From: Christensenellaceae bacterium | GTDB taxonomy: Bacteria > Bacillota > Clostridia > Christensenellales > CALMFG01 | NCBI GenBank assembly: GCA_963666035.2 | Contig: CAXXJI010000008.1 | Location: forward strand, 22,715 to 86,714 | Direction of reading: 5' to 3' | DNA length: 64,000 nucleotides | Shown here: positions 1 through 53,019 of the stretch, piece by piece | How the letters are laid out: each line of letters begins with the position of its first letter | How positions within the stretch are numbered: the first letter of the stretch is position 1 | Program-made: the position numbers and the translations under genes | Notes under the pieces: model-generated | Told to the model about the DNA's origin: nothing | The model's database searches: none | The model's input: the letters and a program-made list of their open reading frames with translations, nothing else

Positions 1-67
1 AAATGGAGAAGGGATGGATGAGACGTTTCAGTTGACGAGGATTGGGTATCGGGCGCGTAGTTATTAA
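1..67 (+). CDS. 3' fragment of a small phage-associated protein (paralog of 50715..50957), truncated by the window edge
   Basis: nt 1-54 match 50867-50920 with 4 mismatches. Reads NGEGMDETFQLTRIGYRARSY* versus NGEGMHESFLLTRIGYRARGIYGG in the paralog. Confidence 0.5.
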   Translation, partial: NGEGMDETFQLTRIGYRARSY

Positions 68-71
68 GAAT

Positions 72-105
72 ATGAAAAATAGAGCCATGCTGAAACAGCT
101 GGCTC
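72..105 (-). terminator. Rho-independent terminator of 140..1336
   Basis: Minus strand reads GAGCCAGCTGtttCAGCaTGGCTC followed by TATTTTT, directly after the stop codon. Confidence 0.55.
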
Positions 106-139
106 ATATTTTCTTATACATATTTTGTACATAATAGGA

Positions 140-1336
140 TTATGGTAATGTCGGACCTTTTGTCCAATGAGCGTAGAAAGTCCTATCAGTAGAAATTTGT
201 GTTGATTTAGAGATCTTCGCGCCAAAGAATTTATCGGTATACCAACCACTGAAAGTATAACCTTTGCGTGTTGGCTTTGGCAATGTTCCCACTTTAGCAT
301 TGTTCTTTACAGTTTTTGTTCTAGGCGAAACAGAACCGCCATTTGCGTCAAAAGTAACAGTTCTATTAATTGTCCATTGCGCGTAATAAGTAGTATCGGC
401 GGTGATTTTGGTAGAAGTAGAGATTTTTGTACCGCCAGTTTTCGCTGTGTACCAACCATTAAAAGAGTAGCCTGCACGATTGATTGAAGGTAACTCGCCG
501 ATGGCTGTGTTATTCTTCACGATTTTTGGCATAAGGCAAACGGACTTTCCATTGCCATCAAAACTAACCGTTCTGTTAACAGCCCATTGGGCGTAAAAAG
601 TTTTATCCGCAGTTATTCTTGTTGAAGTAGAGATTTTTGCGCCGCCAGTTTTCGCTGTGTACCAACCATTGAAAGAGTAGCCATTGCGTGAAGGCGAAGG
701 TAGTTTACCGATGGTAAAATACTTATCAATTTTTTTTGTTGTAGGAGAAACTTCCCCTCCATTGGCATTAAAATTTACATGGCATGTTTTAGTAACGGTC
801 TGATACGCATAAACTGTACTCCATGATAGAGAAGAATCATAATTATGAATTTGAGACATGGTTACGTTTTTCCCGGCAGCAGGATCATTAAAACGGATGT
901 CATTATCTTTATATTCAATAGCCACAATCATATGTTTTGAGCCATCTGCACGCTTGAATCTTATCAAAAGCCCTTGTGGATAATTGCCGGAGGTTAGTAG
1001 TTCCTTTATTTTTGCTTTCTGGGTACCTTCTTTGAAAGTGGTCTGATCACTTATATTAACATCGAAATGATTTGCAAGTGTGCCCCAACTTGCGTTTGCA
1101 TTTTTTCCATTAATAATATAAATGTCGAGAGGGAGTTTCTTATAACCCATGTCAGTAATGACCATTGCGAAACTAGTAAGGAAACACATATTATCCAAAG
1201 TTTTCCCATTGCAAACAATGCCATGTTGACTATAATAAGTATGGCTAGCTGCATATGCATCAACGGGGACAATGGAAAAAATCAGGCATATAATAAGCAT
1301 TACGATTACTGCCTTGCGTCTGTTGGCTTGCTTCAT
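140..1336 (-). CDS. Secreted papain-like (C39-like) cysteine peptidase with three Listeria-Bacteroides (InlB B-type) repeats
   Basis: Signal peptide ending VDAYA. Cys in NMCFLTSFAM and His in KHMIVAIEY..NDPA. Three ~70-aa repeats (GYSFNGWYTAKTGG.KISTST.ITAD.T.YAQW) with ~210-nt DNA periodicity. Confidence 0.6.
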   Translation of the reverse strand: MKQANRRKAVIVMLIICLIFSIVPVDAYAASHTYYSQHGIVCNGKTLDNMCFLTSFAMVITDMGYKKLPLDIYIINGKNANASWGTLANHFDVNISDQTTFKEGTQKAKIKELLTSGNYPQGLLIRFKRADGSKHMIVAIEYKDNDIRFNDPAAGKNVTMSQIHNYDSSLSWSTVYAYQTVTKTCHVNFNANGGEVSPTTKKIDKYFTIGKLPSPSRNGYSFNGWYTAKTGGAKISTSTRITADKTFYAQWAVNRTVSFDGNGKSVCLMPKIVKNNTAIGELPSINRAGYSFNGWYTAKTGGTKISTSTKITADTTYYAQWTINRTVTFDANGGSVSPRTKTVKNNAKVGTLPKPTRKGYTFSGWYTDKFFGAKISKSTQISTDRTFYAHWTKGPTLP

Positions 1337-1593
1337 TTTGTTTACCTCCTACATAATATATTTAAGTGATTATAGAGCATTTCACAAAGGAAGTAAATAG
1401 AAGAAACAGTCAAAATATGCTGTATTAGTTGAAGAAATAACTCAAGATAGATATTGATATTTATATGAAAATAGTACAAAATGAAAGTTATGTGATTGCT
1501 TTTTAATTAGTCAATTTTTTAAATCTATTTCTTTAGTGTAGAATTCGAAGTTTTTTGAGAGAAACTATATTTACAAGGTTATAAAAGCTTGAT

Positions 1594-1617
1594 TTTAACA
1601 CATTTTTAACACACAAG
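1594..1617. repeat. 24-nt motif TTTAACACATTTTTAACACACAAG, copy 1 (identical copy at 52996..53019)
   Basis: Exact 24/24 match, in both cases lying between AT-rich cargo and a hairpin terminator near a prophage end. Confidence 0.8.
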
Positions 1618-1655
1618 TTTTCGATAGAAACCTTATATAAACATACGAAACTATG

Positions 1656-1683
1656 CAAAAAGCCCTGTTTTAGGGCTTTTTTT
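1656..1683. terminator. Bidirectional hairpin terminator
   Basis: AAAAAGCCCTgtttTAGGGCTTTTTTT, with A-run and T-run flanking the stem. Confidence 0.6.
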
Positions 1684-1714
1684 GATGTTTCAGAACGAAT
1701 AAATACGTTTTAAA

Positions 1715-1735
1715 GGAATCCCTCTCTCTCCGCCA
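1715..1735 (+). repeat. Orphan tRNA-Ser-like 3' end fragment (probable att scar), copy 1
   Basis: GGAATCCCTCTCTCTCCGCCA resembles a T-arm 3' half, acceptor 3' strand, G discriminator and CCA. No foldable tRNA body lies upstream. Confidence 0.45.
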
Positions 1736-1897
1736 AAACAAAGGCACTCACACAATGGGGGTGTCTTTTGTTTTGATTGAGAAAGGATTTGAACCCTAAG
1801 AGGGCGCGAAACGTTAAGAAAACGCCACTGTGTTGGCGTTTTTAGTTGAGCGGGCGAGGAGGTACGACCGAAGCCGGCGGGCGCAAGAAGCGCCTGC

Positions 1898-1916
1898 ATC
1901 CCTCTCTCTCCGCCAA
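1898..1916 (+). repeat. Orphan tRNA-Ser-like 3' end fragment, copy 2
   Basis: ATCCCTCTCTCTCCGCCAA is identical over 19 nt to 1718..1736. No tRNA body lies upstream. Confidence 0.45.
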
Positions 1917-1922
1917 GCATAC

Positions 1923-1950
1923 AAAAAGCCCTTAATGCAAGGGCTTTTTT
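1923..1950 (-). terminator. Hairpin terminator downstream of the malic enzyme locus (bidirectional)
   Basis: AAAAAGCCCTTaatgcAAGGGCTTTTTT. Confidence 0.55.
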
Positions 1951-2094
1951 CGCTAAATAAGCGTAGTCAACCATATTTGATTGATATTATTTTTTCGCCA
2001 CGCCGCTTTTTCTTGCCGCCTCCGCCACAGCTTTGGCCACATTGCGGTTTATTATATTGGTAATTGGTTCATCCCCATAGGGCCGACGCGTTCA

Positions 2095-18258: not shown

Positions 18259-18284
18259 GCCACTAGAATCATAGTGGCTTTTTT
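18259..18284 (+). terminator. Rho-independent terminator of the MBOAT operon
   Basis: GCCACTAgaatcaTAGTGGC plus TTTTTT. The T-run abuts the att repeat. Confidence 0.65.
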
Positions 18285-18331
18285 GGTACACCCGACAAGA
18301 TTTGAACTTGCGACCTTACGAGTCGGAGTCG
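18282..18331. repeat. att repeat (distal copy): 50 bp identical to the 3' part of tRNA-Arg at 56058..56107
   Basis: 50/50 identity; sequence diverges immediately on both sides. Confidence 0.9.
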
Positions 18332-18385
18332 GTATCGAAGCCCTTAAAATGGGGATTTTTTGACTAATTGAGGACAGTTTTAGGA

Positions 18386-18410
18386 CTAAAAATGAAAGAA
18401 CGGATGTTCT
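18386..18410 (-). terminator. Possible short terminator after the ~600-aa gene
   Basis: Minus strand reads AGAACatccGTTCT then TTCATTTTT, overlapping the stop codon. Confidence 0.35.
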
Positions 18411-20208
18411 AATCAAACTCATACTCGATAATAAAGCCTGAGGATTCATCAATGTTAAGAACCAGATTGAAAAACACTGTCTCTACTATCAAATACTCTT
18501 GGGTATAAACTTTGATTTCATCGTAAGACATAGTTGTAAAATCAATTTCATAAACATCTTCAGCTATTTTTCTAGATTGAATCCATTCTTCTGCTTCCTC
18601 AAAAGAAAGGTCTCGCGATTCATAATTGATAACCGCAAAATTGAATTCAAAACTATCGACATTTAGAAACACGTTATAAGTACCATTAATTGGCGCAACT
18701 TTTATATCGTTAAGTGCTGTTTTTAAACTCAGATACTCTTTGGAGTCTTTTACTTGTTGACTAAATCCGTATTCATAATCCAAAATAAAACTTGTGATTT
18801 TAATGCTGTTTTTTACCAATAGATTTTCCAACAACGCTAAGCCGCTTTCAGAGAAATCAATACTTTGTACTGGCAGAACTTTGTGGATTGCTTGCCAAAT
18901 ATAGTTATAAAGGTTGTTAGTAAAAACATCAATAAGGAAACTATTGGTTGAGAATTGTCTATGCTTAATATTTGGAGTCAGGTACATTTTGCTTGATTCA
19001 TTAAAGAGTAGACTTGGATTGAATGCGCTTCCAGCCTTTTGCGATAGCGTTGCCTTTATTGATTTGTTTATTTTTTCAATTTCAATTTGCGGGTTGTCGT
19101 TTTGATATGTTGTAATTAAGGATTTCTTACGCATATTATTAAAAAACAAATACAATGATTTTTGGGTATGGGTTCCTTTATTAATGAATAATGGTTTTAA
19201 TCTCTCAACATCTTGTTTCGTTTTTGGGCTTAGGTCACTAGTTCGGTTATCAAAACATTGTAGAGCTGATAAACAAATACGTTCGAGAAAATGGTTATCC
19301 GGAATTGGACCACTTTGAAAATGCTTCGAAAATTCCGTTACCACATTAGATGAAAACTCAAAAAGGTATGATAAAGCAATAATTATCCTTACATTTCTAT
19401 TTTCGGGAACTTCGCGTACTTGAACACCACCACCATCAGGGAAAAAGTCAAATAACCAAAAATGATAATGCTCCGAAAATAAGTTTTCTATATAGTACTT
19501 AATCACTTCTGTAATATTTTCTTCAATAAGCCTGCTTAGACTAATTCGCACGTTGCTGGGTGTATTAATATTATAACTTAAAAGCGCTCTAAGACTCTCG
19601 ACATGAGATTCTTTAATCGACTGATCTTCATAAAATGAGTAGATATATAAAGCAAGAAACATCTCGGATATTGTGGCAATAAAGTTATGCTTGGAATACG
19701 TTTGATTATTTATCGCTAATGAGTATATGATTTTCTCATAGAAATGTTTTTGCATTTCTATGTCTTGATTCAACAGGACAAAATCTTTAAAAAAGTATAG
19801 CAATGATTTTTTATGGATTTCACTTTGGCCATCTTTATATCGAGAAAACTCGCAGAGCGATTCTAACATTTCATCGATTTTATTCCGTTTGAGATTGATA
19901 TCTATTACATAGTTTTTAAGAATGCATGAGAAATGCTGAAATGTGATGTAAATTTTATAATCTTCATCAATTAAGTCACTATTAATAATGTTTGGCAAAT
20001 TACTTTGCAAATTGTATTGAGATAAATCTTTTGTGCTCATTGACAAAAAAGAACTGAACACTTCCGAGAGAATAGCTTCTTTCTCCGAAGAACTCTTATT
20101 GTTTAACACATCGCGATATGCAGCCACGAACCCAAAACTTTTCATGGTAGATAAGAATATCCGTGTGTTGGCATTGCGCAATTCGATTTTTAATTCGCTA
20201 TGATTCAT
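18409..20208 (-). CDS. Unknown ~600-aa soluble protein (AT-rich cargo), partner of the 4TM protein
   Basis: Long ORF with no motif I can assign. ATG 20208 overlaps the upstream stop by 11 nt; the alternative ATG is 20226. Confidence 0.7.
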   Translation of the reverse strand: MNHSELKIELRNANTRIFLSTMKSFGFVAAYRDVLNNKSSSEKEAILSEVFSSFLSMSTKDLSQYNLQSNLPNIINSDLIDEDYKIYITFQHFSCILKNYVIDINLKRNKIDEMLESLCEFSRYKDGQSEIHKKSLLYFFKDFVLLNQDIEMQKHFYEKIIYSLAINNQTYSKHNFIATISEMFLALYIYSFYEDQSIKESHVESLRALLSYNINTPSNVRISLSRLIEENITEVIKYYIENLFSEHYHFWLFDFFPDGGGVQVREVPENRNVRIIIALSYLFEFSSNVVTEFSKHFQSGPIPDNHFLERICLSALQCFDNRTSDLSPKTKQDVERLKPLFINKGTHTQKSLYLFFNNMRKKSLITTYQNDNPQIEIEKINKSIKATLSQKAGSAFNPSLLFNESSKMYLTPNIKHRQFSTNSFLIDVFTNNLYNYIWQAIHKVLPVQSIDFSESGLALLENLLVKNSIKITSFILDYEYGFSQQVKDSKEYLSLKTALNDIKVAPINGTYNVFLNVDSFEFNFAVINYESRDLSFEEAEEWIQSRKIAEDVYEIDFTTMSYDEIKVYTQEYLIVETVFFNLVLNIDESSGFIIEYEFD

Positions 20209-20818
20209 TTGAGATACCTTTCTCAATTTCTTCTAAACATTTAAAAGCAGAAGGAAGCGACTCTTTGCTTCGTTTATCAGTCTGATCACAGATATAGCAG
20301 GATATTCTCTGAATAAAAAGTGAAATCTGTTGATACTCATCATGTATTAAGCAAAATTCTATTTCGAGTAATATCAACTTCTCTTTTTCCGTGTCCTTTA
20401 TTATAAAGAGCCACAGTATGTAGCTATTCACGCCAATATATACAATTATACAGAAGAGCACTGCTGTTGAGGCGTTAGGGAAACCAAGAAACAGTAGCCC
20501 AACAGAAAGACTCATTGCCATGAAGACATGTTTTATTAAGGACAACATATCAACTGGAGATGAATTAAACTCAATCAAAGATTTAATTTCAAATCCAATG
20601 TATTCTCTCGAAATAGAATTAAGTGCAATGGACATTAAAGTAATGCCAAGGACACCAACTGTAATGATTGCTGAAAAGACATAATAAATATAATTTCCAT
20701 CCACCGCGAATATGTAGAAACAACGAAAATTCGTGAAAAAGGCAATAGAAATATCATATATAAGGAGTAACGGTATGAGTATATAACTGAAAATCTTTAT
20801 CGATTTAATGAGTTTCAC
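20198..20818 (-). CDS. Unknown 4-TM membrane protein with a ~65-aa cytoplasmic tail (AT-rich cargo)
   Basis: GTG start immediately after the int stop (TAAGTG), with GGAGGT RBS inside the int 3' end. Four hydrophobic segments (IFSYILIPLLLIY.., IYYVFSAIITVGVLGITLMSIAL, VFMAMSLSVGLLFLGF, AVLFCIIVYIGVNSYILWLFII). Confidence 0.7.
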   Translation of the reverse strand: MKLIKSIKIFSYILIPLLLIYDISIAFFTNFRCFYIFAVDGNYIYYVFSAIITVGVLGITLMSIALNSISREYIGFEIKSLIEFNSSPVDMLSLIKHVFMAMSLSVGLLFLGFPNASTAVLFCIIVYIGVNSYILWLFIIKDTEKEKLILLEIEFCLIHDEYQQISLFIQRISCYICDQTDKRSKESLPSAFKCLEEIEKGISNES

Positions 20819-20819
20819 T

Positions 20820-21875
20820 TTATACCTCCAACCTCATAATCGCCTCTCTCTTCGCATCCATACTCTCATGCACATAAATCTTGGCGGTGACATTGATATC
20901 CGAGTGTCGCATCAGCTTTGAGGTGATGTAGATATCCTTTGTTGCCTCATAGACCAGACTGCCAAAGGTGTGCCGGAGCTCGTGGGTCGATAGAATCGGG
21001 ATATCCGGATTCGCCTTGTGCATATCCGCCATAAACGGGCGGTAGGTGCGGTTAAACCAGGTCGAGGGGCTCTGCAGCTTGTCCTTGGTGTTCGGGAACA
21101 CATAGCCGCTGATTGATCGCGGCAGGGAAGCGAACAGACGCTTCAACTCATTATCGAATGGGATGTCAGCAATGCTGGCTTTTGTTTTAGGCGGGCCAAT
21201 CGTGGTGCCGTATTTGGTCTCAGCCACTGACATATTCACCGACAAAAGATTATTAGACAAATCAATATCACTCCAGCGCAAAGCCAGCAGTTCACTTCTT
21301 CTGAGGCCTGCTTTCAGCAGTACAATGATAGGCGCGCCATGGCGGTGGCCTTTGGCGAATTCGATCACACGTTCGACTTGCTCTTTTGTATATACTCGTT
21401 TCTCTTTGGCTTCAGCTTTAGATTGTATCGACACATTTTTGACCGGGTTTTTCACAATCAAATCATTATCGATGGCGGCTTCAAAGAGCGCGTTCAACGT
21501 AATCTTCATTTTGTTGAGCGAAGACTTGGAGTAGTGCGCGTTCTCATTGAAGAAATTACGGATGTCAATCTGTTTGATATCGGCCAGCCGGGCATTTTTG
21601 AAGTGTGGCACAATCTGATTGCGCACGGGCGCTAGATACGAGTTCTGATAAGTCAGCTCGCTCACATTGCCATGCTTATAGACTTCCAGCCACTTCTCGG
21701 CCCATTCGGCCAACGTGATGGTTTTATCCACTGGGCCAAAGGAGTTATTAATGATATACTCTTGGGCCTTGGCGTTGGCTTCTTTCTTTGTACGGCCATA
21801 AAAACCCTTCCGGATGGGTGTGCCGTCCGGATTGTGGCCGACTGTGATTTTGATTTGAATTCTTGGTTTTGACAT
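20820..21875 (-). CDS. int: Tyrosine recombinase / phage integrase
   Basis: Motifs LKAGLRRSELLALRW, HELRHTFGS and LMRHSDINVTAKIYVH (catalytic Tyr), plus an N-terminal SAM-like domain. Confidence 0.9.
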   Translation of the reverse strand: MSKPRIQIKITVGHNPDGTPIRKGFYGRTKKEANAKAQEYIINNSFGPVDKTITLAEWAEKWLEVYKHGNVSELTYQNSYLAPVRNQIVPHFKNARLADIKQIDIRNFFNENAHYSKSSLNKMKITLNALFEAAIDNDLIVKNPVKNVSIQSKAEAKEKRVYTKEQVERVIEFAKGHRHGAPIIVLLKAGLRRSELLALRWSDIDLSNNLLSVNMSVAETKYGTTIGPPKTKASIADIPFDNELKRLFASLPRSISGYVFPNTKDKLQSPSTWFNRTYRPFMADMHKANPDIPILSTHELRHTFGSLVYEATKDIYITSKLMRHSDINVTAKIYVHESMDAKREAIMRLEV

Positions 21876-21884
21876 AATAGTTCC

Positions 21885-22850
21885 TTAAACGATTTGATAT
21901 ACTAATTTTTTTGTTTTAATATTTAAACCCCATTCAAATTTGTTATTTGAATAATTATAAACGATAATATCGGGGTGGAAGTGCTGTGTTTCTCTTCCTA
22001 GCGAAAAAGCAACTGAAGTTGAGATTGTTGCAAATATATGAATTTCATCAGTGCCGTTTTTTTGTAGAGTATTAATTAGTTCTTTGAACTTTTGGGTGAT
22101 TATTTCAATATCATTATAATAATAGACAGGATATTTGATCTTAAACCTCACTATTGTTGGGTTAGGTATTGTTTTAGCAATATCATCGTCAGATATTGAA
22201 TATGTTTGCTCCACAGCTATTACAACAATATTGCTACTTGGAACTTCTGAAGATATGTCAACTAATCTTTTACCAGCTTGAACATTGGTTAACTCAAAAA
22301 AACCACGTTCCTTATCAGTATATCGTCCATCATTATATTCAAATAATTTTACGTGACGAATATTTTTAAAGGTATAACCATCTAGAAAGGCATAAGGGAT
22401 ATTAGGAAATCCTATGTATATAAAATTGCCGTTAGCCTTAGTTTGTTTAAAGGCTTGTAATATTTCCTTTTCTCTTCTAGATGAATACCTTTCTATAATT
22501 TTTCTGGTATTTTCTTTTGAAGTGAATACTATCTTTTTTCCTGCCTTTCTTAATTCGAGCTGGTAGATTGAGATTCCGTTAGAAAAATACTGAGAAAGGG
22601 CTTCTTTACAATTGCATTGTTTTACATCACTAGACGAGAAAACAACGGTCTTTGCTTTTATTTGTAAAAGTCTATACAACCACGCTTTTATATCTTTTGT
22701 ATGCTCGCTGCTGGCTTTTCGTAAAGATAGTACTATTATTAAAACTGCGATAATTGTAATAGTGAATAAAGTTGCTAAAAACGGATGCTCAATAAAAAGG
22801 TTGAATACTGAACTGGTTGAATCTATAATTTCGCTATAATCATTTGGCAT
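21885..22850 (-). CDS. CBASS effector candidate: N-terminal TM + SAVED-like sensor (Cap14-like)
   Basis: TM FLATLFTITIIAVLIIVLSL. Two CARF/SAVED-like units (FIYIGFPNIPYAFLDGY and IHIFATISTSVAFSLGRE). Overlaps Cap3 by 11 nt. Confidence 0.5.
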   Translation of the reverse strand: MPNDYSEIIDSTSSVFNLFIEHPFLATLFTITIIAVLIIVLSLRKASSEHTKDIKAWLYRLLQIKAKTVVFSSSDVKQCNCKEALSQYFSNGISIYQLELRKAGKKIVFTSKENTRKIIERYSSRREKEILQAFKQTKANGNFIYIGFPNIPYAFLDGYTFKNIRHVKLFEYNDGRYTDKERGFFELTNVQAGKRLVDISSEVPSSNIVVIAVEQTYSISDDDIAKTIPNPTIVRFKIKYPVYYYNDIEIITQKFKELINTLQKNGTDEIHIFATISTSVAFSLGRETQHFHPDIIVYNYSNNKFEWGLNIKTKKLVYQIV

Positions 22851-23322
22851 GATTTACCTCTCCAATCTTAATTATTTCATTAGCATTTATATGGCCAATC
22901 CAAAAACCAATACTTTCAGTTCCAAGAATTATAAAAACTAGTATTCTAGAGTCTGTTTTGCAGTTATTTAGGAGTGCCTTCCAGTTATTAATATCTTGAT
23001 ATGAAGGCGTTGGATGGGCAGTAGGGTGAGTGTGCCATTCTCCAAGATACATTTTTGTTTTTCCACTTTTTCGCCACAACCCGTGTAGGGTTTTGTTGTG
23101 GTTTATGCTACGAAAGTAAAAAAACCTATCTCTTCTATCACTATCAATTGGGGAGGTACAATCTTCAATTATAATTGCTCCCGTGTTTTTTATTATTGAG
23201 CCTATTAGCATGCCGCCTGATTCAGGTTTGTTCTTTTGATTTTGAATATTGCTATAAATGCAACTAAGAACGTTACTTTCTATTTTTATAATTTCTTTAC
23301 TGGCTTGAAGAGTTATGTCCAT
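22840..23322 (-). CDS. cap3: CBASS Cap3, JAB/JAMM isopeptidase
   Basis: ESGGMLIG and EWHTHPTAHPTPSYQD (HxHx7SxxD). ORF track allows a start at 23376; ATG 23322 gives a shorter overlap with Cap2. Confidence 0.8.
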   Translation of the reverse strand: MDITLQASKEIIKIESNVLSCIYSNIQNQKNKPESGGMLIGSIIKNTGAIIIEDCTSPIDSDRRDRFFYFRSINHNKTLHGLWRKSGKTKMYLGEWHTHPTAHPTPSYQDINNWKALLNNCKTDSRILVFIILGTESIGFWIGHINANEIIKIGEVNHAK

Positions 23323-24994
23323 CCTTTGCCCCCACACTACAGATTTTGCATGCTGAATTAATGAAGTCTTCGTCAATCATGTTTTTAGAGTTGTAAGCAT
23401 TTTTGAATCTGTCTGAAAGTTTATGGCCATTTGCTAGTAATTCCTTAGGATTGCCTCGCCATGAATAGAGTGCATTTTTTTGAATTTGTAATGAGGAATT
23501 TAAAAAATCGACGGTTATATTTGCAGCCATTGTTGCTGTTTCCATGACGCTAACACTTCCGTAAGGCGTAAAGGCACCTGCACATCCGCCAGTGTTTTTA
23601 ACAAAGGGTTGTTCACCTTCTATTGCAAACGCTTCTTTATTTTGGATATCATCAAATAGACATTCGAAACAACCTGGATATTCTGGATTAATGTATAATG
23701 CATGACCGCCTATTCCATAGGCTTCTATCCATGTTATAATATATGGAACCGATGAGGTTATTAGATATTCGTTTACTATTTTATTCTTGTTTGGTTCTCC
23801 AATCGCTGAGATTATTAGGTCGTATTCTTTGAGGTCTAAATCACTCCCTATAATTGAAAAAACATCATTAGAAAAGCATTTTATTTCACAATAGGGATAC
23901 CGTCTTGTTAACTCTTTTCTAAGTGCTTCTACTTTGTAATCTAAGAAACGGGAATAGTTAAGCCCTAAAAAATGTCTATACGAGTTCTCGGGACGCAATC
24001 TTTTATTATCTACGAAAGTTAAATGATTAATACCTGAGCGCGCTAAAAGAAAGGCAATATCACTGCCAAGAGAACCACATCCGATAATAAGCACTTTTGC
24101 TTCTGAAATATCTTCTGGCAATCGCTTACATAAATGCACTTTGTCATATCGCTGTATAACAAAAGGAGTTTTTGTAAACTCTGTTTCATATTTATTTGCG
24201 ATAATCGGATGAGTTTTTTTCAGCAGCTTAGATTTTTTTGATTTCTCATATCTAATTCCAAATATGACTTTTTCGTTGGTCAAGAGCTTTAAGCATATGA
24301 TATATTTATAATATCGTTTATTCTTTTTAATCTTTAATAAGTCTCTTAGATTTTTATAGCCAATATGGCATAATATTAATTTGGTTATGTTTTTCTGATA
24401 TGAAAAAAAATTGGAATCTAGAATTGGGCCAACATACTTTTTTTTCAATGGAATAAACACTGTCTCTTCATAATAATGAATGTCTTCCTTGAAAATAATG
24501 TTTTGGAGAGCTTTTTTGCTATTCTCATCTAAATCGCAAAAATAGGTGATATCATTATACTTGGCTGAGGCAACTTTTTTCACATAATCAGTGAGCTGGA
24601 AAATAGAAAAAAACAAATTACTCGTAATTTCCTTCTCAAAATAAACATTGAATTCTCGGTGATACTCATAAGTGATGTTATCAATATTAAAAATATTATC
24701 TATATTTTCCAAAACAAAAAGTAGTGCAAGTTCTGGATCGGAGCTCCAAGATTGACCTTCTGTTTCAATATAACAGATTTGATTTTCAAAAATATGCGGC
24801 AATTTACCAACTTCAGTTAAAATTCTAACTTGCGGCAGACTTCTTGGAAAATGAGCATCAAAACAAAATCGGAAATCTAAAGTATCACCTGAATAAGTAG
24901 TATATGATACGTCATAACAACTAGGTTCACCATCAACCGCGCGGATATTAAATAAAAGCTTGTTTGATTTTAATAAACTAAAAAAATCAATCAT
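23297..24994 (-). CDS. cap2: CBASS Cap2, E2-E1 (ubiquitin-transferase-like) fusion
   Basis: E2-like LPHIFENQICYIE, ThiF/E1 Rossmann LIIGCGSLGSDIAFLLARSG, and CxxC pairs (PGCFEC, ACKIC). Confidence 0.85.
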   Translation of the reverse strand: MIDFFSLLKSNKLLFNIRAVDGEPSCYDVSYTTYSGDTLDFRFCFDAHFPRSLPQVRILTEVGKLPHIFENQICYIETEGQSWSSDPELALLFVLENIDNIFNIDNITYEYHREFNVYFEKEITSNLFFSIFQLTDYVKKVASAKYNDITYFCDLDENSKKALQNIIFKEDIHYYEETVFIPLKKKYVGPILDSNFFSYQKNITKLILCHIGYKNLRDLLKIKKNKRYYKYIICLKLLTNEKVIFGIRYEKSKKSKLLKKTHPIIANKYETEFTKTPFVIQRYDKVHLCKRLPEDISEAKVLIIGCGSLGSDIAFLLARSGINHLTFVDNKRLRPENSYRHFLGLNYSRFLDYKVEALRKELTRRYPYCEIKCFSNDVFSIIGSDLDLKEYDLIISAIGEPNKNKIVNEYLITSSVPYIITWIEAYGIGGHALYINPEYPGCFECLFDDIQNKEAFAIEGEQPFVKNTGGCAGAFTPYGSVSVMETATMAANITVDFLNSSLQIQKNALYSWRGNPKELLANGHKLSDRFKNAYNSKNMIDEDFINSACKICSVGAKDGHNSSSQ

Positions 24995-26054
24995 TCGATA
25001 TCATTACCGCCGAAGATGAAGAATTCGCATGTGATTTTGAAGTTTTAACTCGAACTTCTTGAGGTTCAGGAACCTCAAAGTTTGGTCCGAAATATTGAGA
25101 CATAATCTTGCAAGCCTTATGAGTATCTGCTTCATTCAGAACACTTTCTAAAGCAGAGGACAATTTAGTTATTGATTCATAGAAATAAGTCATTTGTTTT
25201 AGCGTCATCTTCTCATATACATTTTTCCCAGGCTTAACTGGCAATAGCCTTGAAATGGAGTATGTTTCACTTGTGAAATCATATATAAACATGTTTTTTA
25301 TTCCATTTACTACTTGGATTAATGCGTTTAAGTCATCATATTCGGTTTTATCTTTTATTTGATTATATTTTGTTATTGGTGAAAAACTATAAAGGACGTC
25401 TAAAGTCAACCCAATACTTGGCGGTTCAGCGTTTCCTGTTTGAGAGAATTTTATATCTTTCCAAACTTTTAAATATCTAACAATTCGTCTAAATTGAGCT
25501 CGATCATCACCACTGAAGTTGTTTAAAATAGTATCTGATAATCCTCTGGGGTCACACTCTAACCAAGTTTTTTCTTCATCAGATGTTGAGGGTTTCCCCC
25601 AAGATAAATACAGTGAGTCGTTATATTTTGACTTAAAATAAACTGGAAGATCAACATGGAAGGTTGGTTCTCCGCTTAATGAATACGTTATAGTCAAACA
25701 AGGACGTTTAATCTTAGGCGGAACTGTAGTATGATTTTTAATTATTTCAAATATCAATTCTTTAATTTGAATTGGATCGGGAAAATCTTCTTTGTGTAAA
25801 TCAATAAGTATTCCTACATCAATGTCATAATCTTTATTTGGAGGGTTAATGCCTGTGCCAAGCTTATAGCTACCTTGATTAATATAGGAAATTGAAGAAC
25901 AAGAAATTTCCATCTCTTTAAACTTCTCTTTAAGGCCTGCTTTAATCTTATTGAAAACAATATCGCGTTTTTGACACAATGTTTGGTTTTCATCGAAAGT
26001 ACCAAGTTTGATCTTATCATGGAAATTGTTTAAATAATTTTGAATATAAGCCAT
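24987..26054 (-). CDS. cdnX: CBASS CD-NTase (cGAS/DncV-like nucleotidyltransferase)
   Basis: GS...DxD signature QGSYKLGTGINPPNKDYDIDVGI with a downstream third acidic residue (HVDLPVY). GGAGG RBS. 8-nt overlap with Cap2. Confidence 0.85.
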   Translation of the reverse strand: MAYIQNYLNNFHDKIKLGTFDENQTLCQKRDIVFNKIKAGLKEKFKEMEISCSSISYINQGSYKLGTGINPPNKDYDIDVGILIDLHKEDFPDPIQIKELIFEIIKNHTTVPPKIKRPCLTITYSLSGEPTFHVDLPVYFKSKYNDSLYLSWGKPSTSDEEKTWLECDPRGLSDTILNNFSGDDRAQFRRIVRYLKVWKDIKFSQTGNAEPPSIGLTLDVLYSFSPITKYNQIKDKTEYDDLNALIQVVNGIKNMFIYDFTSETYSISRLLPVKPGKNVYEKMTLKQMTYFYESITKLSSALESVLNEADTHKACKIMSQYFGPNFEVPEPQEVRVKTSKSHANSSSSAVMISND

Positions 26055-26114
26055 AATTCCTCCAATAATTTAATTCTATATTTTATAATAAAGGAAGCAT
26101 AGATGTAGTATAAA

Positions 26115-26235
26115 TTAACAACGCATTAACATCACTTTGAAAGACACAGCCTTTCCCAGCATCCTCACATTAATAATCTCTTTACCCCGGTTACTCAATA
26201 GCCTTATAACTGGACGACCAGTAGCCAGGGCAAAA
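26115..26235 (-). pseudogene. Fossil 3' end of a second S24/CI-type repressor gene
   Basis: Translates ALATGRPVIRLLSNRGKEIINVRMLGKAVSFKVMLMRC*, colinear with the CI C-terminus LVAENPAYKPLVYQGEEMNNVRILGKAVAFQSDVR*. DNA 26128..26186 resembles 27017..27075. No N-terminal part is present. Confidence 0.7.
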
Positions 26236-26246
26236 GAAGTTTTTGT

Positions 26247-26909
26247 TTACCACTCAGTCCCGCAGTTATTAACCCCATACTCAGCTTGAGCGTTCGAGAA
26301 GCCTTCAAACTTTAACTGATCAATCAGCCCGCTTTTTGAAAAAGTCATAGAATCCAAATACTCACGTGCTTTTTTTGCTGCCTGTTCGTTCCAATCAGCA
26401 CCACAGTTCGAAACGCCGTAAGTAGCTTCATCATCTGAAAAGCCTTCATATTTTAGCTGATCAATGAGCCCACTTTCGGAGAAAGACATAGTGGATAAAT
26501 ACTCCATAGCTTTTGTTAACGCCTGCTCGTTCCAGTCAGCTCCACAGTTTTCAACAGCGTATATGGCTTCTTCATTGGTATAGCCTTCATACTCCAATTG
26601 CTCAACCAAGCCGTTTTTTGAGAAACTCATAAGTGATAAATAATCATTCGCGGTTGTTAATGCATTTCGCATGCCCAGCGGAATATCTGATGCAGGCTCT
26701 GGTGTTGCGACTACCGCGACTTCCTCCAAAACAGTTTCTGATGCATCAGCTTGCGTTGGCTCATCAATAACTGCTTGAACAGGGGAACTCTTCTCGGCTG
26801 TATCGGATGTATCTCCGCCACATGAGCCAATAGCCGCCATCAGGACGATGACAACGATTACCCAGAACCACCATTTTTGATAGAATTTCTTTTTATCTTT
26901 TTCTTCCAT
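26247..26909 (-). CDS. ltp: Ltp-family surface lipoprotein (superinfection-exclusion type) with three Ltp repeats
   Basis: TM plus lipobox AAIGSCGG. Three ~47-aa repeats (SFS.SGLIDQLKYEGFS..EA.YGV.NCGADWNEQA). Confidence 0.75.
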   Translation of the reverse strand: MEEKDKKKFYQKWWFWVIVVIVLMAAIGSCGGDTSDTAEKSSPVQAVIDEPTQADASETVLEEVAVVATPEPASDIPLGMRNALTTANDYLSLMSFSKNGLVEQLEYEGYTNEEAIYAVENCGADWNEQALTKAMEYLSTMSFSESGLIDQLKYEGFSDDEATYGVSNCGADWNEQAAKKAREYLDSMTFSKSGLIDQLKFEGFSNAQAEYGVNNCGTEW

Positions 26910-26948
26910 AGATACAACCGTCCTCTCTGAATTCCATTTTTTATCTAT

Positions 26949-26977
26949 ATATTACAATTTCACGAAACAACATTCAA
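26949..26977 (-). promoter_or_regulatory. Candidate sigma-A promoter of ltp
   Basis: Minus strand reads TTGAAT, 17 nt, TAATAT, upstream of a GAGAGGA RBS. Confidence 0.45.
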
Positions 26978-27010
26978 TAAAATATAGAAAAAAAGTAATT
27001 CTTTAAGTGA

Positions 27011-27637
27011 TTATCGAACATCACTCTGAAAAGCCACAGCTTTCCCAAGTATTCTCACATTATTCATCTCTTCACCCTGATAAACCAACGGTTTATACGC
27101 CGGATTCTCAGCCACCAAGGTGATGTTGTTTTCGTTGATATAAACACGCTTCAGCGTGGCTTCGTCATCGATGAGCACGGCGGCAATTTCCCCATCGTTC
27201 ACCGTGGGCTGCTGCCGGATAAACACCAGGTCACCGTCTTGGATGCGGGCGTTTATCATACTGTCGCCTTTTACCTGAAGGCAGAAGTCGGCCTGTATTT
27301 CGGCACCGACTTGAACATAGTATTCAAAGTTCTGTTCAGCAAAAGTTGGTGTACCCGCGGCGATAGTGCCGAGCACGGGAATCTTGCGCTTTTCGATTTT
27401 ATAGATATTATCAGGCGCTTTTGCGAGTCCGATTTCTTTTGTATCTATTCTTCCTATAAGGTAGTCGGTAGATACATCAAACAAATCTGCCAATTGTTTC
27501 ATAGTTTCTGGATTAGGGGTGGAATCTCCATTTTCCCATTTTGCATATGCTTGCTGAGACACGAACAATTCTTTTGCAACTTGTGCTTGTGATAACCCAA
27601 GATCGCCCCTACATTCTTTTAAACGTTCTCTTAACAT
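27011..27637 (-). CDS. cI: CI-type repressor: XRE HTH + S24 (LexA-like) autopeptidase
   Basis: HTH LSQAQVAKELFVSQQAYAKWENG. S24 Ser in VKGDSMINARIQDGDLVFI and Lys in ATLKRV. Confidence 0.9.
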   Translation of the reverse strand: MLRERLKECRGDLGLSQAQVAKELFVSQQAYAKWENGDSTPNPETMKQLADLFDVSTDYLIGRIDTKEIGLAKAPDNIYKIEKRKIPVLGTIAAGTPTFAEQNFEYYVQVGAEIQADFCLQVKGDSMINARIQDGDLVFIRQQPTVNDGEIAAVLIDDEATLKRVYINENNITLVAENPAYKPLVYQGEEMNNVRILGKAVAFQSDVR

Positions 27638-50714: not shown

Positions 50715-50957
50715 ATGAAACTGGTATACAAAGAGTTGAGCATCTATGAGGTGCTGTGGTTATTTGAAATGGGTGAGCCGATCACATTAAGTGAGCTGAT
50801 CGCTAAAGGCGCAAAAGAAATGAGGGTGATAGACGCCAAGTGCAAGGGCTGGATTGAGCGGTGCGGAAATGGAGAAGGGATGCATGAGTCGTTTCTGTTG
50901 ACTAGGATTGGGTATCGGGCAAGGGGGATATATGGAGGTGTGTATAGAAATGCGTGA
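50715..50957 (+). CDS. 80-aa conserved phage-end protein, unknown (paralog fragment at 1..67)
   Basis: GGAGG RBS; 3' end conserved with the window start. Confidence 0.6.
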   Translation: MKLVYKELSIYEVLWLFEMGEPITLSELIAKGAKEMRVIDAKCKGWIERCGNGEGMHESFLLTRIGYRARGIYGGVYRNA

Positions 50958-51354
50958 ATGGATCGGCAAACAAATGAAAAAGCTTCCTTAAATACGTGCA
51001 ATGTTACATGCATTATTCTTTTAGAAGATAATAGTTGAAAGAAGAATAGATGACTGATACAATTAACAAATACAAATTAAAGTATTTATTACCAATATAG
51101 CTAAAGCGTGTAAACATCTGCTGGTGAGGCTTGTGCAATTCTAATAGTTGTACCAATAAAAAAATTAAATGTTTAAAATTCATTAAGGGTTTTCGAAAGG
51201 GATGTTATCAAATTAACAAAGAAAATTTATATTAATTTTTTGATAATATCAGTAATAGTAAAATGGTAGTGTATAATTGATTACACTGCAAGTACGAATT
51301 TGCTATATCAAGCATAAAATTAATCAAATTTCTTTGAAGGGATTACTAAAGGAA

Positions 51355-51879
51355 ATGAATCAAAATAGGCGTTGGGGTTGGGTGATTTTTTTATTAGCCG
51401 CTGCGATTGTGGTTATAATAACAAGCCATTCTAGAATAAAACTAAGTACAGACATTGCAGAAAGCAGGGCAGAAAGACAAAATGCAGAAGAAACTGCATT
51501 TATGGAGAATATTGATATAAACCAAATGCTTGGTGATTGGTCAGCAAGATATAATGATAGAAATGGAACAGTTCAAAAAACGATACACATACAAAACTGC
51601 ACGTATGAAGGTAATTATATCGTTGGAATTTATGGTTATATTGAAGTTGGATTGGTGGACAATTCAGAAGTATACGGTTCTTATGAATTTGTTGGAACTG
51701 TAAACTATTATGGACATCCTGATATGAAGTATATGCCGATTGAAATCAATGCTACAAAAACCATTCAAGATAGTAATCAAGTAGAAAAAGTATCTCTTGA
51801 GGGTAGTTTTCGAGGAAAAGATATAGAACTTAGGAGATCTACTGAAATTATAGATAGTCAAATCTTTAGACGAGAATAA
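51355..51879 (+). CDS. AT-rich cargo: membrane-anchored protein with a beta-rich ectodomain, unknown
   Basis: TM WGWVIFLLAAAIVVIITS. Start ambiguous (ATG 51355 or TTG 51334). Confidence 0.55.
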   Translation: MNQNRRWGWVIFLLAAAIVVIITSHSRIKLSTDIAESRAERQNAEETAFMENIDINQMLGDWSARYNDRNGTVQKTIHIQNCTYEGNYIVGIYGYIEVGLVDNSEVYGSYEFVGTVNYYGHPDMKYMPIEINATKTIQDSNQVEKVSLEGSFRGKDIELRRSTEIIDSQIFRRE

Positions 51880-52247: not shown

Positions 52248-52904
52248 ATGGATAATGATGTTCAAAAACTATTTAAATTAGAGAAAGATTATCAAACGTT
52301 AAGAGAATATGAATCTGAAATCTCATCAGTTTATGGTAGGCAAGACTTACCAAAGACTACATTGATGTCATATGTTGTTTTCTTTATGGTCTTAATGTAT
52401 CTAATATTCTTCATATCTGAAAAGATCGCATATTTCCCGCTTGTCAGTGCTTGGACTCTGTCATTAGTACTTATTTGGATCGTGAATTTTAGAGAGAAAT
52501 ACTATTTGTCAGATGAATACAGAATAATTGTTGAAGAATCAAATGCAGAAATTGCGGACCTGAATGTTGTAAAAAATCAATTGAACAAAGAAATAGGTTT
52601 AAACAATGTAATTGGTGGGAAATATAAGAAACGAGAAATCGTAAATGAGTTGTGTTCGTATATAAGGTCGGGTAGAGCTAAGTCGGTGCAAAGAGCAATT
52701 GACGTTTATGAGTATGAACTTAGACTGGAAAGAGAGCGTCAAGAGCAACTAGAGAGGCAAAGAGCTGAGCAAATGAGAGTGCAAAAAATGAATGAAGAAT
52801 TAAAAAGATTGGAAGAGCGCAAAAAATATGAAGAAAAGCAAAAAAGATGGAGAGAAGAGGAAGAAAGAATCCGAGAAGCAGACGAGGATGCTGGATATTT
52901 TTAA
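52248..52904 (+). CDS. AT-rich cargo: two-TM protein with a highly charged coiled-coil tail, unknown
   Basis: TMs LMSYVVFFMVLMYLIFFI and FPLVSAWTLSLVLIWIVNF. C-terminal RLERERQEQLERQRAEQMR... Confidence 0.6.
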   Translation: MDNDVQKLFKLEKDYQTLREYESEISSVYGRQDLPKTTLMSYVVFFMVLMYLIFFISEKIAYFPLVSAWTLSLVLIWIVNFREKYYLSDEYRIIVEESNAEIADLNVVKNQLNKEIGLNNVIGGKYKKREIVNELCSYIRSGRAKSVQRAIDVYEYELRLERERQEQLERQRAEQMRVQKMNEELKRLEERKKYEEKQKRWREEEERIREADEDAGYF

Positions 52905-52995: not shown

Positions 52996-53019
52996 TTTAA
53001 CACATTTTTAACACACAAG
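52996..53019. repeat. 24-nt motif TTTAACACATTTTTAACACACAAG, copy 2
   Basis: Identical to 1594..1617. Confidence 0.8.

What the first reader, a model, noticed from the sequence alone, without database searches (positions are those of the whole stretch)
18409..20818. Uncharacterised two-gene module (4TM protein + ~600-aa protein) between the integrase and the att site: candidate new defence/Abi system
Two visibly AT-rich genes sit in the roughly 2.4-kb gap between the 3' end of int and the att repeat. That position is normally almost empty in temperate phages. The genes are tightly coupled. The 4TM gene starts with GTG directly after the int stop (TAAGTG), and its GGAGGT RBS lies inside int. 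The ~600-aa gene overlaps the 4TM stop by 11 nt. I could find no catalytic or family motif in either protein: no P-loop, nuclease, HEPN, TIR, SIR2 or NTase signature. The architecture of a small 4TM protein followed by a large soluble partner recalls Kiwa (KwaA/KwaB) and other membrane-sensor plus effector pairs, but the soluble protein is about twice the size of KwaB and I cannot show homology. The module lies in a prophage that already carries CBASS, Ltp and a STAND NTPase, on the same strand as the CBASS operon, which is typical context for an anti-phage or exclusion function expressed in the lysogen.
Basis: partly seen in the sequence, partly recalled or inferred. Interest (0 to 1): 0.78.

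Follow-up and report, generated by a model that had tools for sequence, protein, structure and literature searches.

The report
Split membrane-anchored candidate phage-defence protein
The two genes between the prophage integrase and its attachment site are the two halves of one rare, uncharacterised ~800-residue membrane protein family that usually sits next to known anti-phage genes, so it is a plausible but untested new defence gene, not a Kiwa-like two-gene system.

Summary
Two AT-rich, translationally coupled minus-strand genes (4TM protein 20198-20818; 599-aa protein 18409-20208) lie between a tyrosine integrase and the tRNA-Arg att repeat of a 37.8-kb prophage that also carries type II CBASS and Ltp. 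Neither protein matches Pfam, PADLOC, PHROGs, NCBIfam (2026), PDB sequences or any solved or viral predicted fold.

The main new result is that this is not a true two-component system. A profile search of 1.84 billion proteins found about 98 clusters. Nearly all are single ~800-aa proteins whose residues ~210-800 match the 599-aa protein. Their residues ~20-190 match the 4TM protein (hhalign 99.4%). The window and one related phage contig (L001, 46%/38% identity) carry the same clean split.

The predicted architecture is an N-in/C-in 4TM domain, a cytoplasmic HEAT/ARM-like solenoid and an unmatched alpha/beta domain, with no catalytic motifs.

Fused homologues sit beside type I and IIG R-M systems, STAND/NACHT proteins, PDC-S41 and a toxin-antitoxin pair, and on mobile elements. 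Several copies are decayed.

My best reading (about 0.5) is an abortive-infection or exclusion protein with a cytoplasmic sensor and a membrane effector, working like RexAB but unrelated to it. Function is untested.

The parts
20198..20818 (-). Gene for the 206-aa membrane half. It has 4 TM helices (about residues 9-29, 44-66, 97-113 and 118-139) with N-in/C-in topology, plus a 67-residue cytoplasmic helical tail. It corresponds to residues ~20-190 of the fused ~800-aa family.
   Evidence: ORF. hhalign to family profile A2: probability 99.4%, E 2.9e-21. BLASTP to P0004: 3e-14. 38% identity to the L001 homologue overall, and 62% in TM2 plus the cytoplasmic loop. Topology by the positive-inside rule. 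No Pfam, PADLOC, PHROGs or NCBIfam hit.
18409..20208 (-). Gene for the 599-aa cytoplasmic half. Residues 1-~395 form an all-alpha HEAT/ARM-like solenoid and residues ~400-599 form an alpha/beta domain. It corresponds to residues ~210-800 of the fused family.
   Evidence: ORF. 46% identical to P0001 over the full length. The profile search gave 98 hits at E<=1e-3 and 28 at E<=1e-30, mostly ~800-aa proteins matched at ~210-800. AF2 pLDDT 81, pTM 0.68. Foldseek against PDB and BFVD gave nothing at E<=1e-3. No catalytic motifs.
20198..20208 (-). Split junction. The ATG of the 599-aa gene lies inside the last codons of the 4TM gene (TCAAATGAATCATAG), an 11-nt overlap in the +1 frame. A purine-rich GAGAAAGG lies at 20224-20217.
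   Evidence: L001 has the same junction (TCAAATGAATAA, 8-nt overlap, same +1 frame, GGAGAG upstream). There is no slippery site, so I read it as translational coupling and not frameshifting (inference).
20824..20829 (-). GGAGGT ribosome-binding site of the 4TM gene, inside the 3' end of int, 5 nt before the GTG at 20818.
   Evidence: In L001 the int stop and the 4TM start overlap as ATGA.
20820..21875 (-). Tyrosine integrase (context). It lies directly upstream and is coupled to the module. It is 9 nt downstream of the CBASS SAVED-TM effector gene.
   Evidence: Pfam Phage_integrase 4.6e-18 and Phage_int_SAM_3 1.5e-11. No promoter or terminator signal above shuffled expectation between CBASS, int and the module.
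18279..18331 (.). att repeat (context): the displaced 3' part of tRNA-Arg(CCG), marking the left end of the prophage. Its partner is at 56055-56107.
18366..18390 (-). Arm-type repeat (TAGTCCTAAAACTGTCCTCAA) between the stop of the 599-aa gene and the att core. It is a probable integrase arm site, so the module lies between int and the P' arm of attP.
   Evidence: Related repeats (GTCCTCAAAGTGTCCTCAA) occur at the right prophage end, and repeats flank the core contiguously on both sides in L001. Their function as Int sites is inferred.

Best explanation
Shown:
- The two genes encode the N-terminal membrane part and the C-terminal cytoplasmic part of one rare, unnamed protein family that is normally a single ~800-aa polypeptide.
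- The family architecture is a 4TM domain (N-in, C-in, with a near-invariant Asp in TM1 and a highly conserved TM2 plus cytoplasmic loop), a ~400-residue HEAT/ARM-like alpha-solenoid, and a ~200-residue alpha/beta domain with no recognisable relative.
- In this phage lineage the gene is split inside the first solenoid helices. Both halves are complete, collinear and translationally coupled.

Inferred:
- The two halves reassemble non-covalently.
- The module is AT-rich cargo carried between int and attP of a temperate phage. It is probably transcribed with the cI-Ltp-CBASS-int gene string in the lysogen.
- It acts as a stand-alone abortive-infection or exclusion device. The cytoplasmic solenoid and alpha/beta domain would recognise a component of an infecting phage or a state it causes. 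They would pass this, through the conserved cytoplasmic loop, to the 4TM domain.
- The 4TM domain would then compromise the membrane by ion leak or depolarisation, which stops the infection.

This is the logic proposed for RexA/RexB and Sbash gp30/gp31, reached with unrelated proteins.
For: Family and split:
- Profile search: 98 hits, nearly all ~800 aa, with the query matching ~210-800.
- The 4TM protein matches family positions 23-191 (hhalign 99.4%).
- The seven-sequence alignment is collinear, with no missing segment.
- The same split, with the same junction sequence and frame, is found in L001 at 46%/38% identity.

Architecture and topology:
- AF2 models.
- K+R counts by segment: N-terminus 3.5, loop1 0.55, loop2 3.3, loop3 0.1, post-TM4 3.5.
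- The split soluble half has no signal peptide or TM segment.

The membrane domain is more than an anchor:
- TM2 plus loop2 is the most conserved block in the family.
- It is 62% identical between the window and L001, against 24-35% for the rest of that protein.
- D23, T51 and G73 are conserved at >=90%.

Non-enzymatic: no catalytic motifs or domains.

Defence and mobile-element association of independent loci:
- Window: CBASS and Ltp.
- L002/L003/L005: type I hsdMSR, downstream of glmS.
- L009: STAND NTPase, MobA/MobL, resolvase and a split type IIG R-M system.
- L011: NACHT protein with an LmuA-like N-terminus.
- L012: PDC-S41 at 2.3e-86, plus Bro-N.
- L013: RelB plus a nucleotidyltransferase.
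- L017: a large serine recombinase. L020/L021: IS21.

Other:
- Foreign composition.
- Patchy, rare distribution with decayed copies.
- The functional analogy to RexAB and Sbash gp30/31, including the role of a central cytoplasmic loop of the 4TM partner, comes from PMC6426596.
Against: - There is no experimental phenotype.
- Only about 13 independent contexts could be inspected. About half have recognised defence neighbours. L004, L008 and L015/L016 do not (ABC-F/HTH, DUF7255 and GntR-ABC transporter/APH respectively).
- No formal enrichment statistic was computed.
- The family was not found in IMG/VR, INPHARED phages or PLSDB plasmids. Phage carriage is therefore documented only for the window and L001, with L012 a possible third.
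- No promoter specific to the module was detected, so expression in the lysogen is assumed.
- Pore or channel activity of the 4TM domain is pure inference.
- An all-alpha solenoid is equally compatible with a scaffold or adaptor role.
Confidence: 0.5

Rival explanations
1. It is a superinfection-exclusion protein acting at the membrane, not an Abi. The 4TM domain would sit at or near the host channel or receptor that incoming phages use. It would block DNA entry without killing the cell, and the cytoplasmic part would stabilise or regulate it.
For: It lies in a prophage lysogeny-side gene string next to Ltp, a known injection blocker. It is a membrane protein with a strongly conserved TM core. 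It has no catalytic domain.
Against: Known Sie proteins are small and mostly extracytoplasmic or membrane-only. Here about 650 of about 800 residues are cytoplasmic. There is no PHROGs or Pfam Sie/Ltp/Imm-type hit. Most homologues are chromosomal or island-borne and not in prophages.
Confidence: 0.15
2. It is accessory mobile-element cargo unrelated to phage defence. It could be an addiction or stabilisation module, an immunity or export-associated membrane protein for a peptide toxin (bacteriocin/RiPP), or a membrane-anchored scaffold of unknown cellular role.
For: One homologue is fused or adjacent to a SkfB/AlbA-like radical SAM/SPASM peptide maturase. Some loci have transporter or regulator neighbours and no defence genes (L004, L015). 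The family is frequently decayed and close to IS elements or recombinases, which fits any dispensable cargo.
Against: The rSAM locus is itself degraded: the rSAM is broken by a stop and the family gene lacks its 4TM part. It is the only such case among about 98 clusters. Defence neighbours recur in independent, unrelated loci. No RiPP precursor or transporter genes flank the window copy.
Confidence: 0.25
3. The split is a pseudogenising frameshift, so the window copy is a dead remnant of the ~800-aa gene.
For: Other TM-less or truncated copies clearly are remnants. L017 has a TM1 stub ORF followed by a 661-aa ORF, while a 90%-identical sibling is 827 aa. L020/L021 are cut next to IS21.
Against: Both halves are full-length, collinear and free of internal stops in two lineages that have diverged to 46% and 38% identity. 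They share the same junction, frame, start codon and upstream purine-rich site. Conservation is concentrated in the same blocks as in the fused family. A dead gene would not keep 1.8 kb plus 0.6 kb open in 32% GC DNA.
Confidence: 0.05
4. The module is functionally tied to integration or excision, as an integrase accessory or directionality factor, or to the neighbouring CBASS operon.
For: It is tightly translationally coupled to int in both the window and L001. It is on the same strand and only 9 nt plus int away from the CBASS effector.
Against: Fused homologues occur without any integrase or CBASS nearby (L002-L005, L011, L013, L015). A membrane-anchored 800-aa protein is unlike any known RDF. 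It has no DNA-binding domain.
Confidence: 0.05

Closest known systems
Lambda RexA/RexB and mycobacteriophage Sbash gp30/gp31 (prophage-expressed exclusion; PMC6426596)
   Same: Both are prophage-borne and pair a four-TM membrane protein with a cytoplasmic partner. The model proposed for those systems is that the cytoplasmic sensor activates the membrane protein, causing depolarisation and aborted infection. [quoted passage not shown] In the family here, the equivalent loop is the most conserved segment.
   Different: There is no sequence or fold relationship: no DUF4747/RexA or RexB Pfam hit, no PADLOC hit, and no PDB fold hit. The gene order is reversed (membrane gene first). The soluble part is about twice as large and is a solenoid plus an alpha/beta domain. 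The ancestral state here is a single fused polypeptide.
Kiwa (KwaA 4TM + KwaB DUF4868)
   Same: A small 4TM protein is encoded first, followed by a larger soluble protein. Both are found in a defence-island context.
   Different: There is no KwaA or KwaB (PADLOC) or DUF4868 (Pfam) match at E<=1, nor among 42 fused family members. The two genes here are halves of one protein, not two distinct families.
TM-domain effectors fused to cytoplasmic sensor domains (for example CBASS SAVED-TM/Cap14-15-type effectors and CRISPR type III CARF-TM effectors such as Cap1 and Csx23)
   Same: The one-polypeptide logic is the same: N-terminal TM helices plus a cytoplasmic ligand or partner-binding domain, producing membrane damage. 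A real example (SAVED-1TM, 21885-22850) lies three genes upstream in the same prophage.
   Different: There is no SAVED, CARF or other nucleotide-sensor domain, and no associated signal synthase among homologues. The sensor candidate is a HEAT/ARM-like repeat, which more often binds proteins.
The unnamed ~800-aa 4TM-solenoid family itself (for example P0003, P0004 and P0100; Bacillota and Oscillospiraceae MAGs and metagenomes)
   Same: Full-length collinear homology of both window proteins (E down to 6e-58 for the 599-aa profile; hhalign 99.4% for the 4TM half).
   Different: The window and L001 encode it as two overlapping genes. Some residues that are near-invariant in fused members differ in the split lineage: K469 becomes Q (window) or R (L001), and D683 becomes E in both. 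N677 becomes S in the window but is kept in L001.

Membership tests
Unnamed ~800-aa 4TM-solenoid-alpha/beta family (defined here) | The C-terminal ~600 residues (solenoid plus alpha/beta domain) are homologous over their full length. | tested here: met
   Profile A1 against 1.84e9 proteins: 98 hits at E<=1e-3 and 28 at E<=1e-30. Query residues 1-599 align to ~210-800 of ~800-aa proteins. Collinear alignment.
Unnamed ~800-aa 4TM-solenoid-alpha/beta family (defined here) | The N-terminal 4TM domain carries the conserved TM1 Asp, the TM2 TV..LG motif and the cytoplasmic G-F..K loop. | tested here: met
   hhalign of the window 4TM protein against A2: probability 99.4%, E 2.9e-21, aligned to positions 23-191. 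D21, T and G are present.
Unnamed ~800-aa 4TM-solenoid-alpha/beta family (defined here) | Single polypeptide. | tested here: not met
   The protein is split into two overlapping ORFs in the window and in L001. It is therefore a split variant of the family.
Kiwa | KwaB homologue (DUF4868). | tested here: not met
   No Pfam or PADLOC hit at E<=1 for the 599-aa protein. None among 42 fused relatives.
Kiwa | KwaA homologue (4TM). | tested here: not met
   No PADLOC hit at E<=1 for the 206-aa protein. Only the number of TM helices is shared.
RexAB / Sbash gp30-gp31 | Cytoplasmic partner with the RexA/DUF4747 domain. | tested here: not met
   No Pfam hit at E<=1. No PDB sequence hit with the family profile A2, made of fused relatives. 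No significant PDB fold hit. The DUF4747 criterion is taken from PMC6426596.
RexAB / Sbash gp30-gp31 | Four-TM membrane partner encoded adjacently in a prophage. | tested here: met
   Four TM helices are present and the genes overlap inside the prophage. This is an architectural resemblance only, with no RexB homology.
RexAB / Sbash gp30-gp31 | Infection-triggered loss of membrane potential and abortive infection. | not testable with these tools
   This needs phage challenge and membrane-potential assays.
STAND/AVAST-type NTPase defence proteins | P-loop NTPase domain. | tested here: not met
   No Walker A motif. No AAA, NACHT or NB-ARC Pfam hit.
Phage superinfection-exclusion proteins (Ltp, Sie, Imm) | Homology to known Sie families. 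| tested here: not met
   No PHROGs or Pfam hit. The true Ltp of this prophage is a different gene (26247-26909).
Defence-island gene (operational definition: recurrent neighbourhood with known defence systems) | A large share of homologues lie within about 10 genes of known defence systems. | tested here: inconclusive
   About 6 of about 13 independent loci have R-M, STAND/NACHT, PDC-S41, CBASS or TA neighbours. The sample is small, many contigs are short, and no background was computed.

The most novel reading that the evidence does not exclude
This would be a previously unrecognised family of self-contained anti-phage proteins. A HEAT/ARM-like cytoplasmic sensor and a new alpha/beta domain would gate the protein's own four-helix membrane effector. 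The window would then show a natural split into separate sensor and pore genes, meaning a RexAB-like two-gene exclusion system caught arising from a single-gene ancestor by gene fission.
Probability: 0.35. Interest if true: 0.65.

Novelty: new variant of a known kind. Interest (0 to 1): 0.55.

Why it matters
If the function is confirmed, this adds a defence family from gut-type Bacillota, a group poorly covered by the E. coli and Bacillus screens that produced most known systems. The family has no homology to any catalogued system and no enzymatic domain. The fused and split forms are a ready-made experiment on how membrane effectors are coupled to cytoplasmic sensors. They may also illustrate how two-gene systems of the RexAB type can originate. 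For annotation, the result links two adjacent hypothetical proteins to a single family of about 100 clusters, and shows that the int-attP junction of this phage lineage is a cargo slot.

Tried and rejected
- **Homology to known systems.** I tested Kiwa, RexAB and all other PADLOC 2.0, Pfam 2025, PHROGs v4 and NCBIfam 2026 models. Neither protein matched, and neither did 42 fused relatives.
- **Structure.** PDB sequence profile search: nothing. Foldseek against PDB with two models returned only generic karyopherin/ARM solenoids, with TM<0.3 normalised to the query. Foldseek against BFVD put HK97-type capsid proteins on top, but at E 5e-3 and TM ~0.3, so I rejected this as unconvincing.
- **Effector swapping.** P0035 carries a radical SAM/SPASM domain in place of the 4TM domain. 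The locus looks degraded: the rSAM is interrupted by a stop and resembles a peptide maturase, not a viperin. I do not use it as evidence.
- **Multiple independent splits.** P0016, P0028, P0072 and P0098 lack TM segments. P0072 is a truncated copy with a TM1 stub and an 827-aa sibling. P0028 is cut near IS21 and a contig end. P0016 and P0098 could not be inspected. Only the window/L001 split is verified.
- **Programmed frameshifting at the junction.** There is no slippery sequence and both lineages have their own ATG and purine-rich site, so I rejected it.
- **Wider sampling of loci.**
  - The search for related loci with the 42-sequence alignment failed because it was too diverse.
  - Genome scans: the first, with A1, found no relative; the second, with A5, gave 3 loci.
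  - The metagenome scan gave 3 loci.
  - IMG/VR (three scans with family queries), INPHARED and PLSDB gave none.
- **Dedicated promoter or terminator for the module.** The scan found no more promoter-like sites than shuffled sequence and only slightly more terminator-like sites, and no convincing site between CBASS, int and the module.
- **Literature.** Searches found no described HEAT-repeat/TM defence protein.
Full report
**1. Observation**

The region holds two minus-strand ORFs. One is 20198-20818: 206 aa, GTG start. The other is 18409-20226, whose real start is the ATG at 20208, giving 599 aa.

They follow a tyrosine integrase at 20820-21875 (Pfam Phage_integrase 4.6e-18). The integrase stop is TAA at 20822-20820. 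One base separates it from the GTG at 20818. GGAGGT lies at 20829-20824, inside int. The ATG of the 599-aa gene sits inside the last codons of the 4TM gene (TCAAATGAATCATAG), an 11-nt overlap.

A 53-nt direct repeat at 18279-18331 and 56055-56107 is the 3' part of tRNA-Arg(CCG) at 56060-56136. It delimits a 37.8-kb prophage. The prophage contents:

- terminase, portal, major capsid protein, tape measure protein and lysin;
- a cI-like repressor;
- Ltp;
- a complete type II CBASS: CD-NTase, E1/E2, JAB and a SAVED-TM effector.

The two genes are 32-33% GC. By comparison, int is 48%, the structural genes 54-55% and the host flank 49%.

**2. No known family**

Neither protein hits Pfam, PADLOC 2.0, PHROGs or NCBIfam (June 2026), even at E<=1. 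Motif scans find no Walker A, HEPN, PD-(D/E)xK, HExxH or similar motif. The Kiwa and RexAB comparisons therefore fail as homology claims.

**3. What the genes are**

The word-indexed search found a single relative of the 599-aa protein, P0001 at 46% identity. P0001 sits on contig L001 with the same layout: integrase 3' end, a 208-aa TM protein (38% identical to the window's), the 599-aa protein, then a tRNA-Arg-like att core.

An exhaustive profile search against 1.84 billion representatives gave 98 hits at E<=1e-3 and 28 at E<=1e-30. Almost all are ~800-aa proteins in which the query aligns to residues ~210-800.

The N-terminal ~200 residues of these proteins contain four hydrophobic helices. 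They are homologous to the window's 4TM protein: hhalign probability 99.4%, E 2.9e-21, profile positions 23-191; BLASTP 3e-14 to P0004.

A seven-sequence alignment is collinear, with nothing missing at the break. The 'two-gene module' is therefore a gene fission of a family that is normally one polypeptide.

The fission is not a recent lesion. The window and L001 share the junction sequence, the +1 frame, an ATG and an upstream purine-rich site, yet the proteins have diverged to 46% and 38% identity with both halves intact. There is no slippery site, so I infer translational coupling and two polypeptides.

**4. Architecture**

AlphaFold2 of the 599-aa protein (7-sequence alignment) gives pLDDT 81 and pTM 0.68. 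Residues 1-~395 are all-alpha and residues ~400-599 are alpha/beta.

The fused P0100 model (pLDDT 67) shows helices 2-31, 42-67, 90-109 and 113-139, followed by the same solenoid and alpha/beta domain.

Structure and sequence searches found no meaningful relative:

- Foldseek against PDB found nothing at E<=1e-3. Hits were only generic ARM/HEAT/karyopherin repeats with TM<0.3 normalised to the query.
- Foldseek against BFVD gave nothing significant. The top hits, HK97 capsid proteins at TM ~0.3, are not convincing.
- A PDB sequence profile search found nothing.

Across 42 members, lysine plus arginine counts are 3.5 (N-terminus), 0.55 (loop 1), 3.3 (loop 2), 0.1 (loop 3) and 3.5 (after TM4). 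This gives an N-in/C-in topology. It agrees with the split soluble half having no signal peptide or TM segment, so the ~650 non-membrane residues are cytoplasmic.

The most conserved block of the whole family is TM2 plus the cytoplasmic loop 2, residues 41-80. That block is 62% identical between the window and L001, against 24-35% for the rest of the protein. The C-terminal alpha/beta domain is 52-58% identical, against 32-45% for the solenoid.

Residues conserved at >=90% include an Asp in TM1, a Thr in TM2 and a Gly in loop 2. The conserved polar residues do not form a catalytic motif. The membrane domain therefore looks functional and not a mere anchor, and the protein looks non-enzymatic.

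**5. Where the family lives**

The family is rare. Clusters have 1-3 members. Hits per collection:

| Collection | Loci found |
|---|---|
| 185,579 species-representative genomes | 3 (a Bacillota MAG, an Oscillospiraceae MAG and a weak Bacteroidales fragment) |
| JGI metagenomes | 3 |
| IMG/VR | 0 |
| INPHARED phages | 0 |
| PLSDB plasmids | 0 |

The independent contexts I could inspect:

| Locus | Context |
|---|---|
| Window | Prophage with CBASS and Ltp |
| L001 | Phage in attP configuration (see below) |
| L002/L003/L005 | Island downstream of glmS with type I hsdMSR |
| L009 | Mobilisable element: MobA/MobL and resolvase, with a STAND NTPase and a split type IIG R-M flanking the gene |
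| L011 | Directly after a 1165-aa NACHT protein with an LmuA-like N-terminus |
| L012 | Directly after PDC-S41 (2.3e-86) and before a Bro-N protein |
| L013 | Before RelB plus a nucleotidyltransferase |
| L017 | Beside a large serine recombinase |
| L020/L021 | Beside IS21 |
| L004, L008, L015/L016 | No recognisable defence neighbour |

Several copies are decayed. L017 keeps only a TM1 stub ahead of a 661-aa ORF, while a 90%-identical sibling is 827 aa. L020/L021 are truncated. L018/L019 fuse a broken radical SAM/SPASM maturase to the TM-less part.

Taken together, the pattern is of an accessory, mobile, fast-turnover gene that often sits in defence islands. This is typical of anti-phage genes, but the sample is small and I computed no background.

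**6. Position in the phage**

The ~190 nt after the att core in L001 match the phage-side sequence at the right end of the window's prophage. The match includes arm-type repeats (GTCCTCAAAGTGTCCTCAA). A related repeat (AAACTGTCCTCA) lies between the 599-aa stop and the core in both sequences.

L001 is therefore in attP configuration. The module is real phage cargo, inserted between int and the P' arm.

In the window, the genes cI, Ltp, CD-NTase, Cap2, Cap3, SAVED-TM, int, the 4TM gene and the 599-aa gene all lie on one strand. The last three junctions are 9 nt, 1 nt and an 11-nt overlap. Between them the consensus scan found no convincing promoter or terminator; overall, promoter-like sites were no more frequent than in shuffled sequence and terminator-like sites only slightly more. 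Expression with the lysogenic CBASS genes is plausible but not shown.

**7. Mechanism (inferred)**

The best-supported reading is a self-contained abortive-infection or exclusion protein:

- The cytoplasmic solenoid plus alpha/beta domain senses an infecting phage. Repeat solenoids typically bind proteins.
- The signal passes through the conserved cytoplasmic loop to the 4TM domain.
- The 4TM domain damages membrane integrity.

In the split lineage, the 67-residue helical tail of the 4TM protein corresponds to the first solenoid helices of the fused proteins. It would dock onto the 599-aa protein.

[quoted passage not shown] Here it would have been reached with unrelated proteins.

I put this reading at about 0.5. 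The rivals and my confidence in each:

- non-lethal exclusion at the membrane: 0.15;
- non-defence cargo, including a possible link to peptide toxins suggested by the single rSAM locus: 0.25;
- pseudogene: 0.05;
- an int- or CBASS-linked role: 0.05.

**8. Verdict**

The family is new in the sense that it matches none of the libraries searched here. The kind of system it most resembles, a membrane effector coupled to a cytoplasmic sensor, is known. I therefore rate it a new variant of a known kind, with interest 0.55. The fused-versus-split pair is its most distinctive and testable feature.

Noticed in passing
window 1-54 and 50867-50920; window 1-2000: A 54-nt sequence just downstream of the prophage lysis genes is repeated (93%) at the very start of the window. 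It is followed there by AT-rich DNA that encodes a 398-aa secreted repeat protein (140-1336, -). This looks like the cargo end of a second, related element.
   Followed up: partly
window 1594-1621 and 52996-53023: A 28-nt motif, TTTAACACATTTTTAACACACAAG(T/A)TTT, occurs in both AT-rich cargo regions. It may be a shared regulatory site.
   Followed up: no
window ~18366-18390 and ~55800-55860; L001 2610-2640 and ~2860-2880: Arm-type repeats (AAACTGTCCTCA / GTCCTCAAAGTGTCCTCAA) flank the att core. In L001 both arms are contiguous with the core, so that contig is a phage in attP (unintegrated) configuration.
   Followed up: partly
window 20820-27637 (-): The integrase sits in the middle of a same-strand gene string: cI, Ltp, four CBASS genes, int, then the module. 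Intergenic gaps around int are 9 nt and 1 nt, with no predicted terminator, which implies int may be transcribed with lysogenic defence genes.
   Followed up: partly
window 53126-55867 (+), with tandem repeat 54953-55630: The 913-aa right-end cargo protein has an NB-ARC-type P-loop (SPGGIGKS) followed by TPR units of 126 nt, which fits a STAND-like NTPase. The AT-rich ORFs at 51277-51879 and 52248-52904 have no hit in Pfam or NCBIfam.
   Followed up: partly
L018 631-3641 and L019 348-3358: In two independent samples, a SkfB/AlbA-like radical SAM/SPASM maturase is joined to the TM-less part of the family protein. The maturase has its CxxxCxxC motif in a separate 144-aa ORF that ends in TAG. This is either a degraded locus or a real domain swap. 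A Ser/Thr kinase gene lies downstream.
   Followed up: partly
L017 1518-3655; L020 and L021: These are decayed family copies. In L017 a 59-aa ORF keeps only TM1, with its conserved Asp, ahead of a 661-aa ORF, while a 90%-identical sibling is 827 aa. In L020/L021 a 667-aa copy lies next to IS21.
   Followed up: yes
model of window 18409-20208 (residues ~400-599): The best BFVD Foldseek hits are HK97-type major capsid proteins (E 5e-3, TM ~0.3). This is too weak to accept, and the C-terminal domain could not be searched in isolation.
   Followed up: no
protein collection, cluster of window:18409-20208: In the 90% clustering the window's 599-aa protein is filed under a 49-aa representative. This is why the word-indexed search did not return it as its own hit.
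   Followed up: yes
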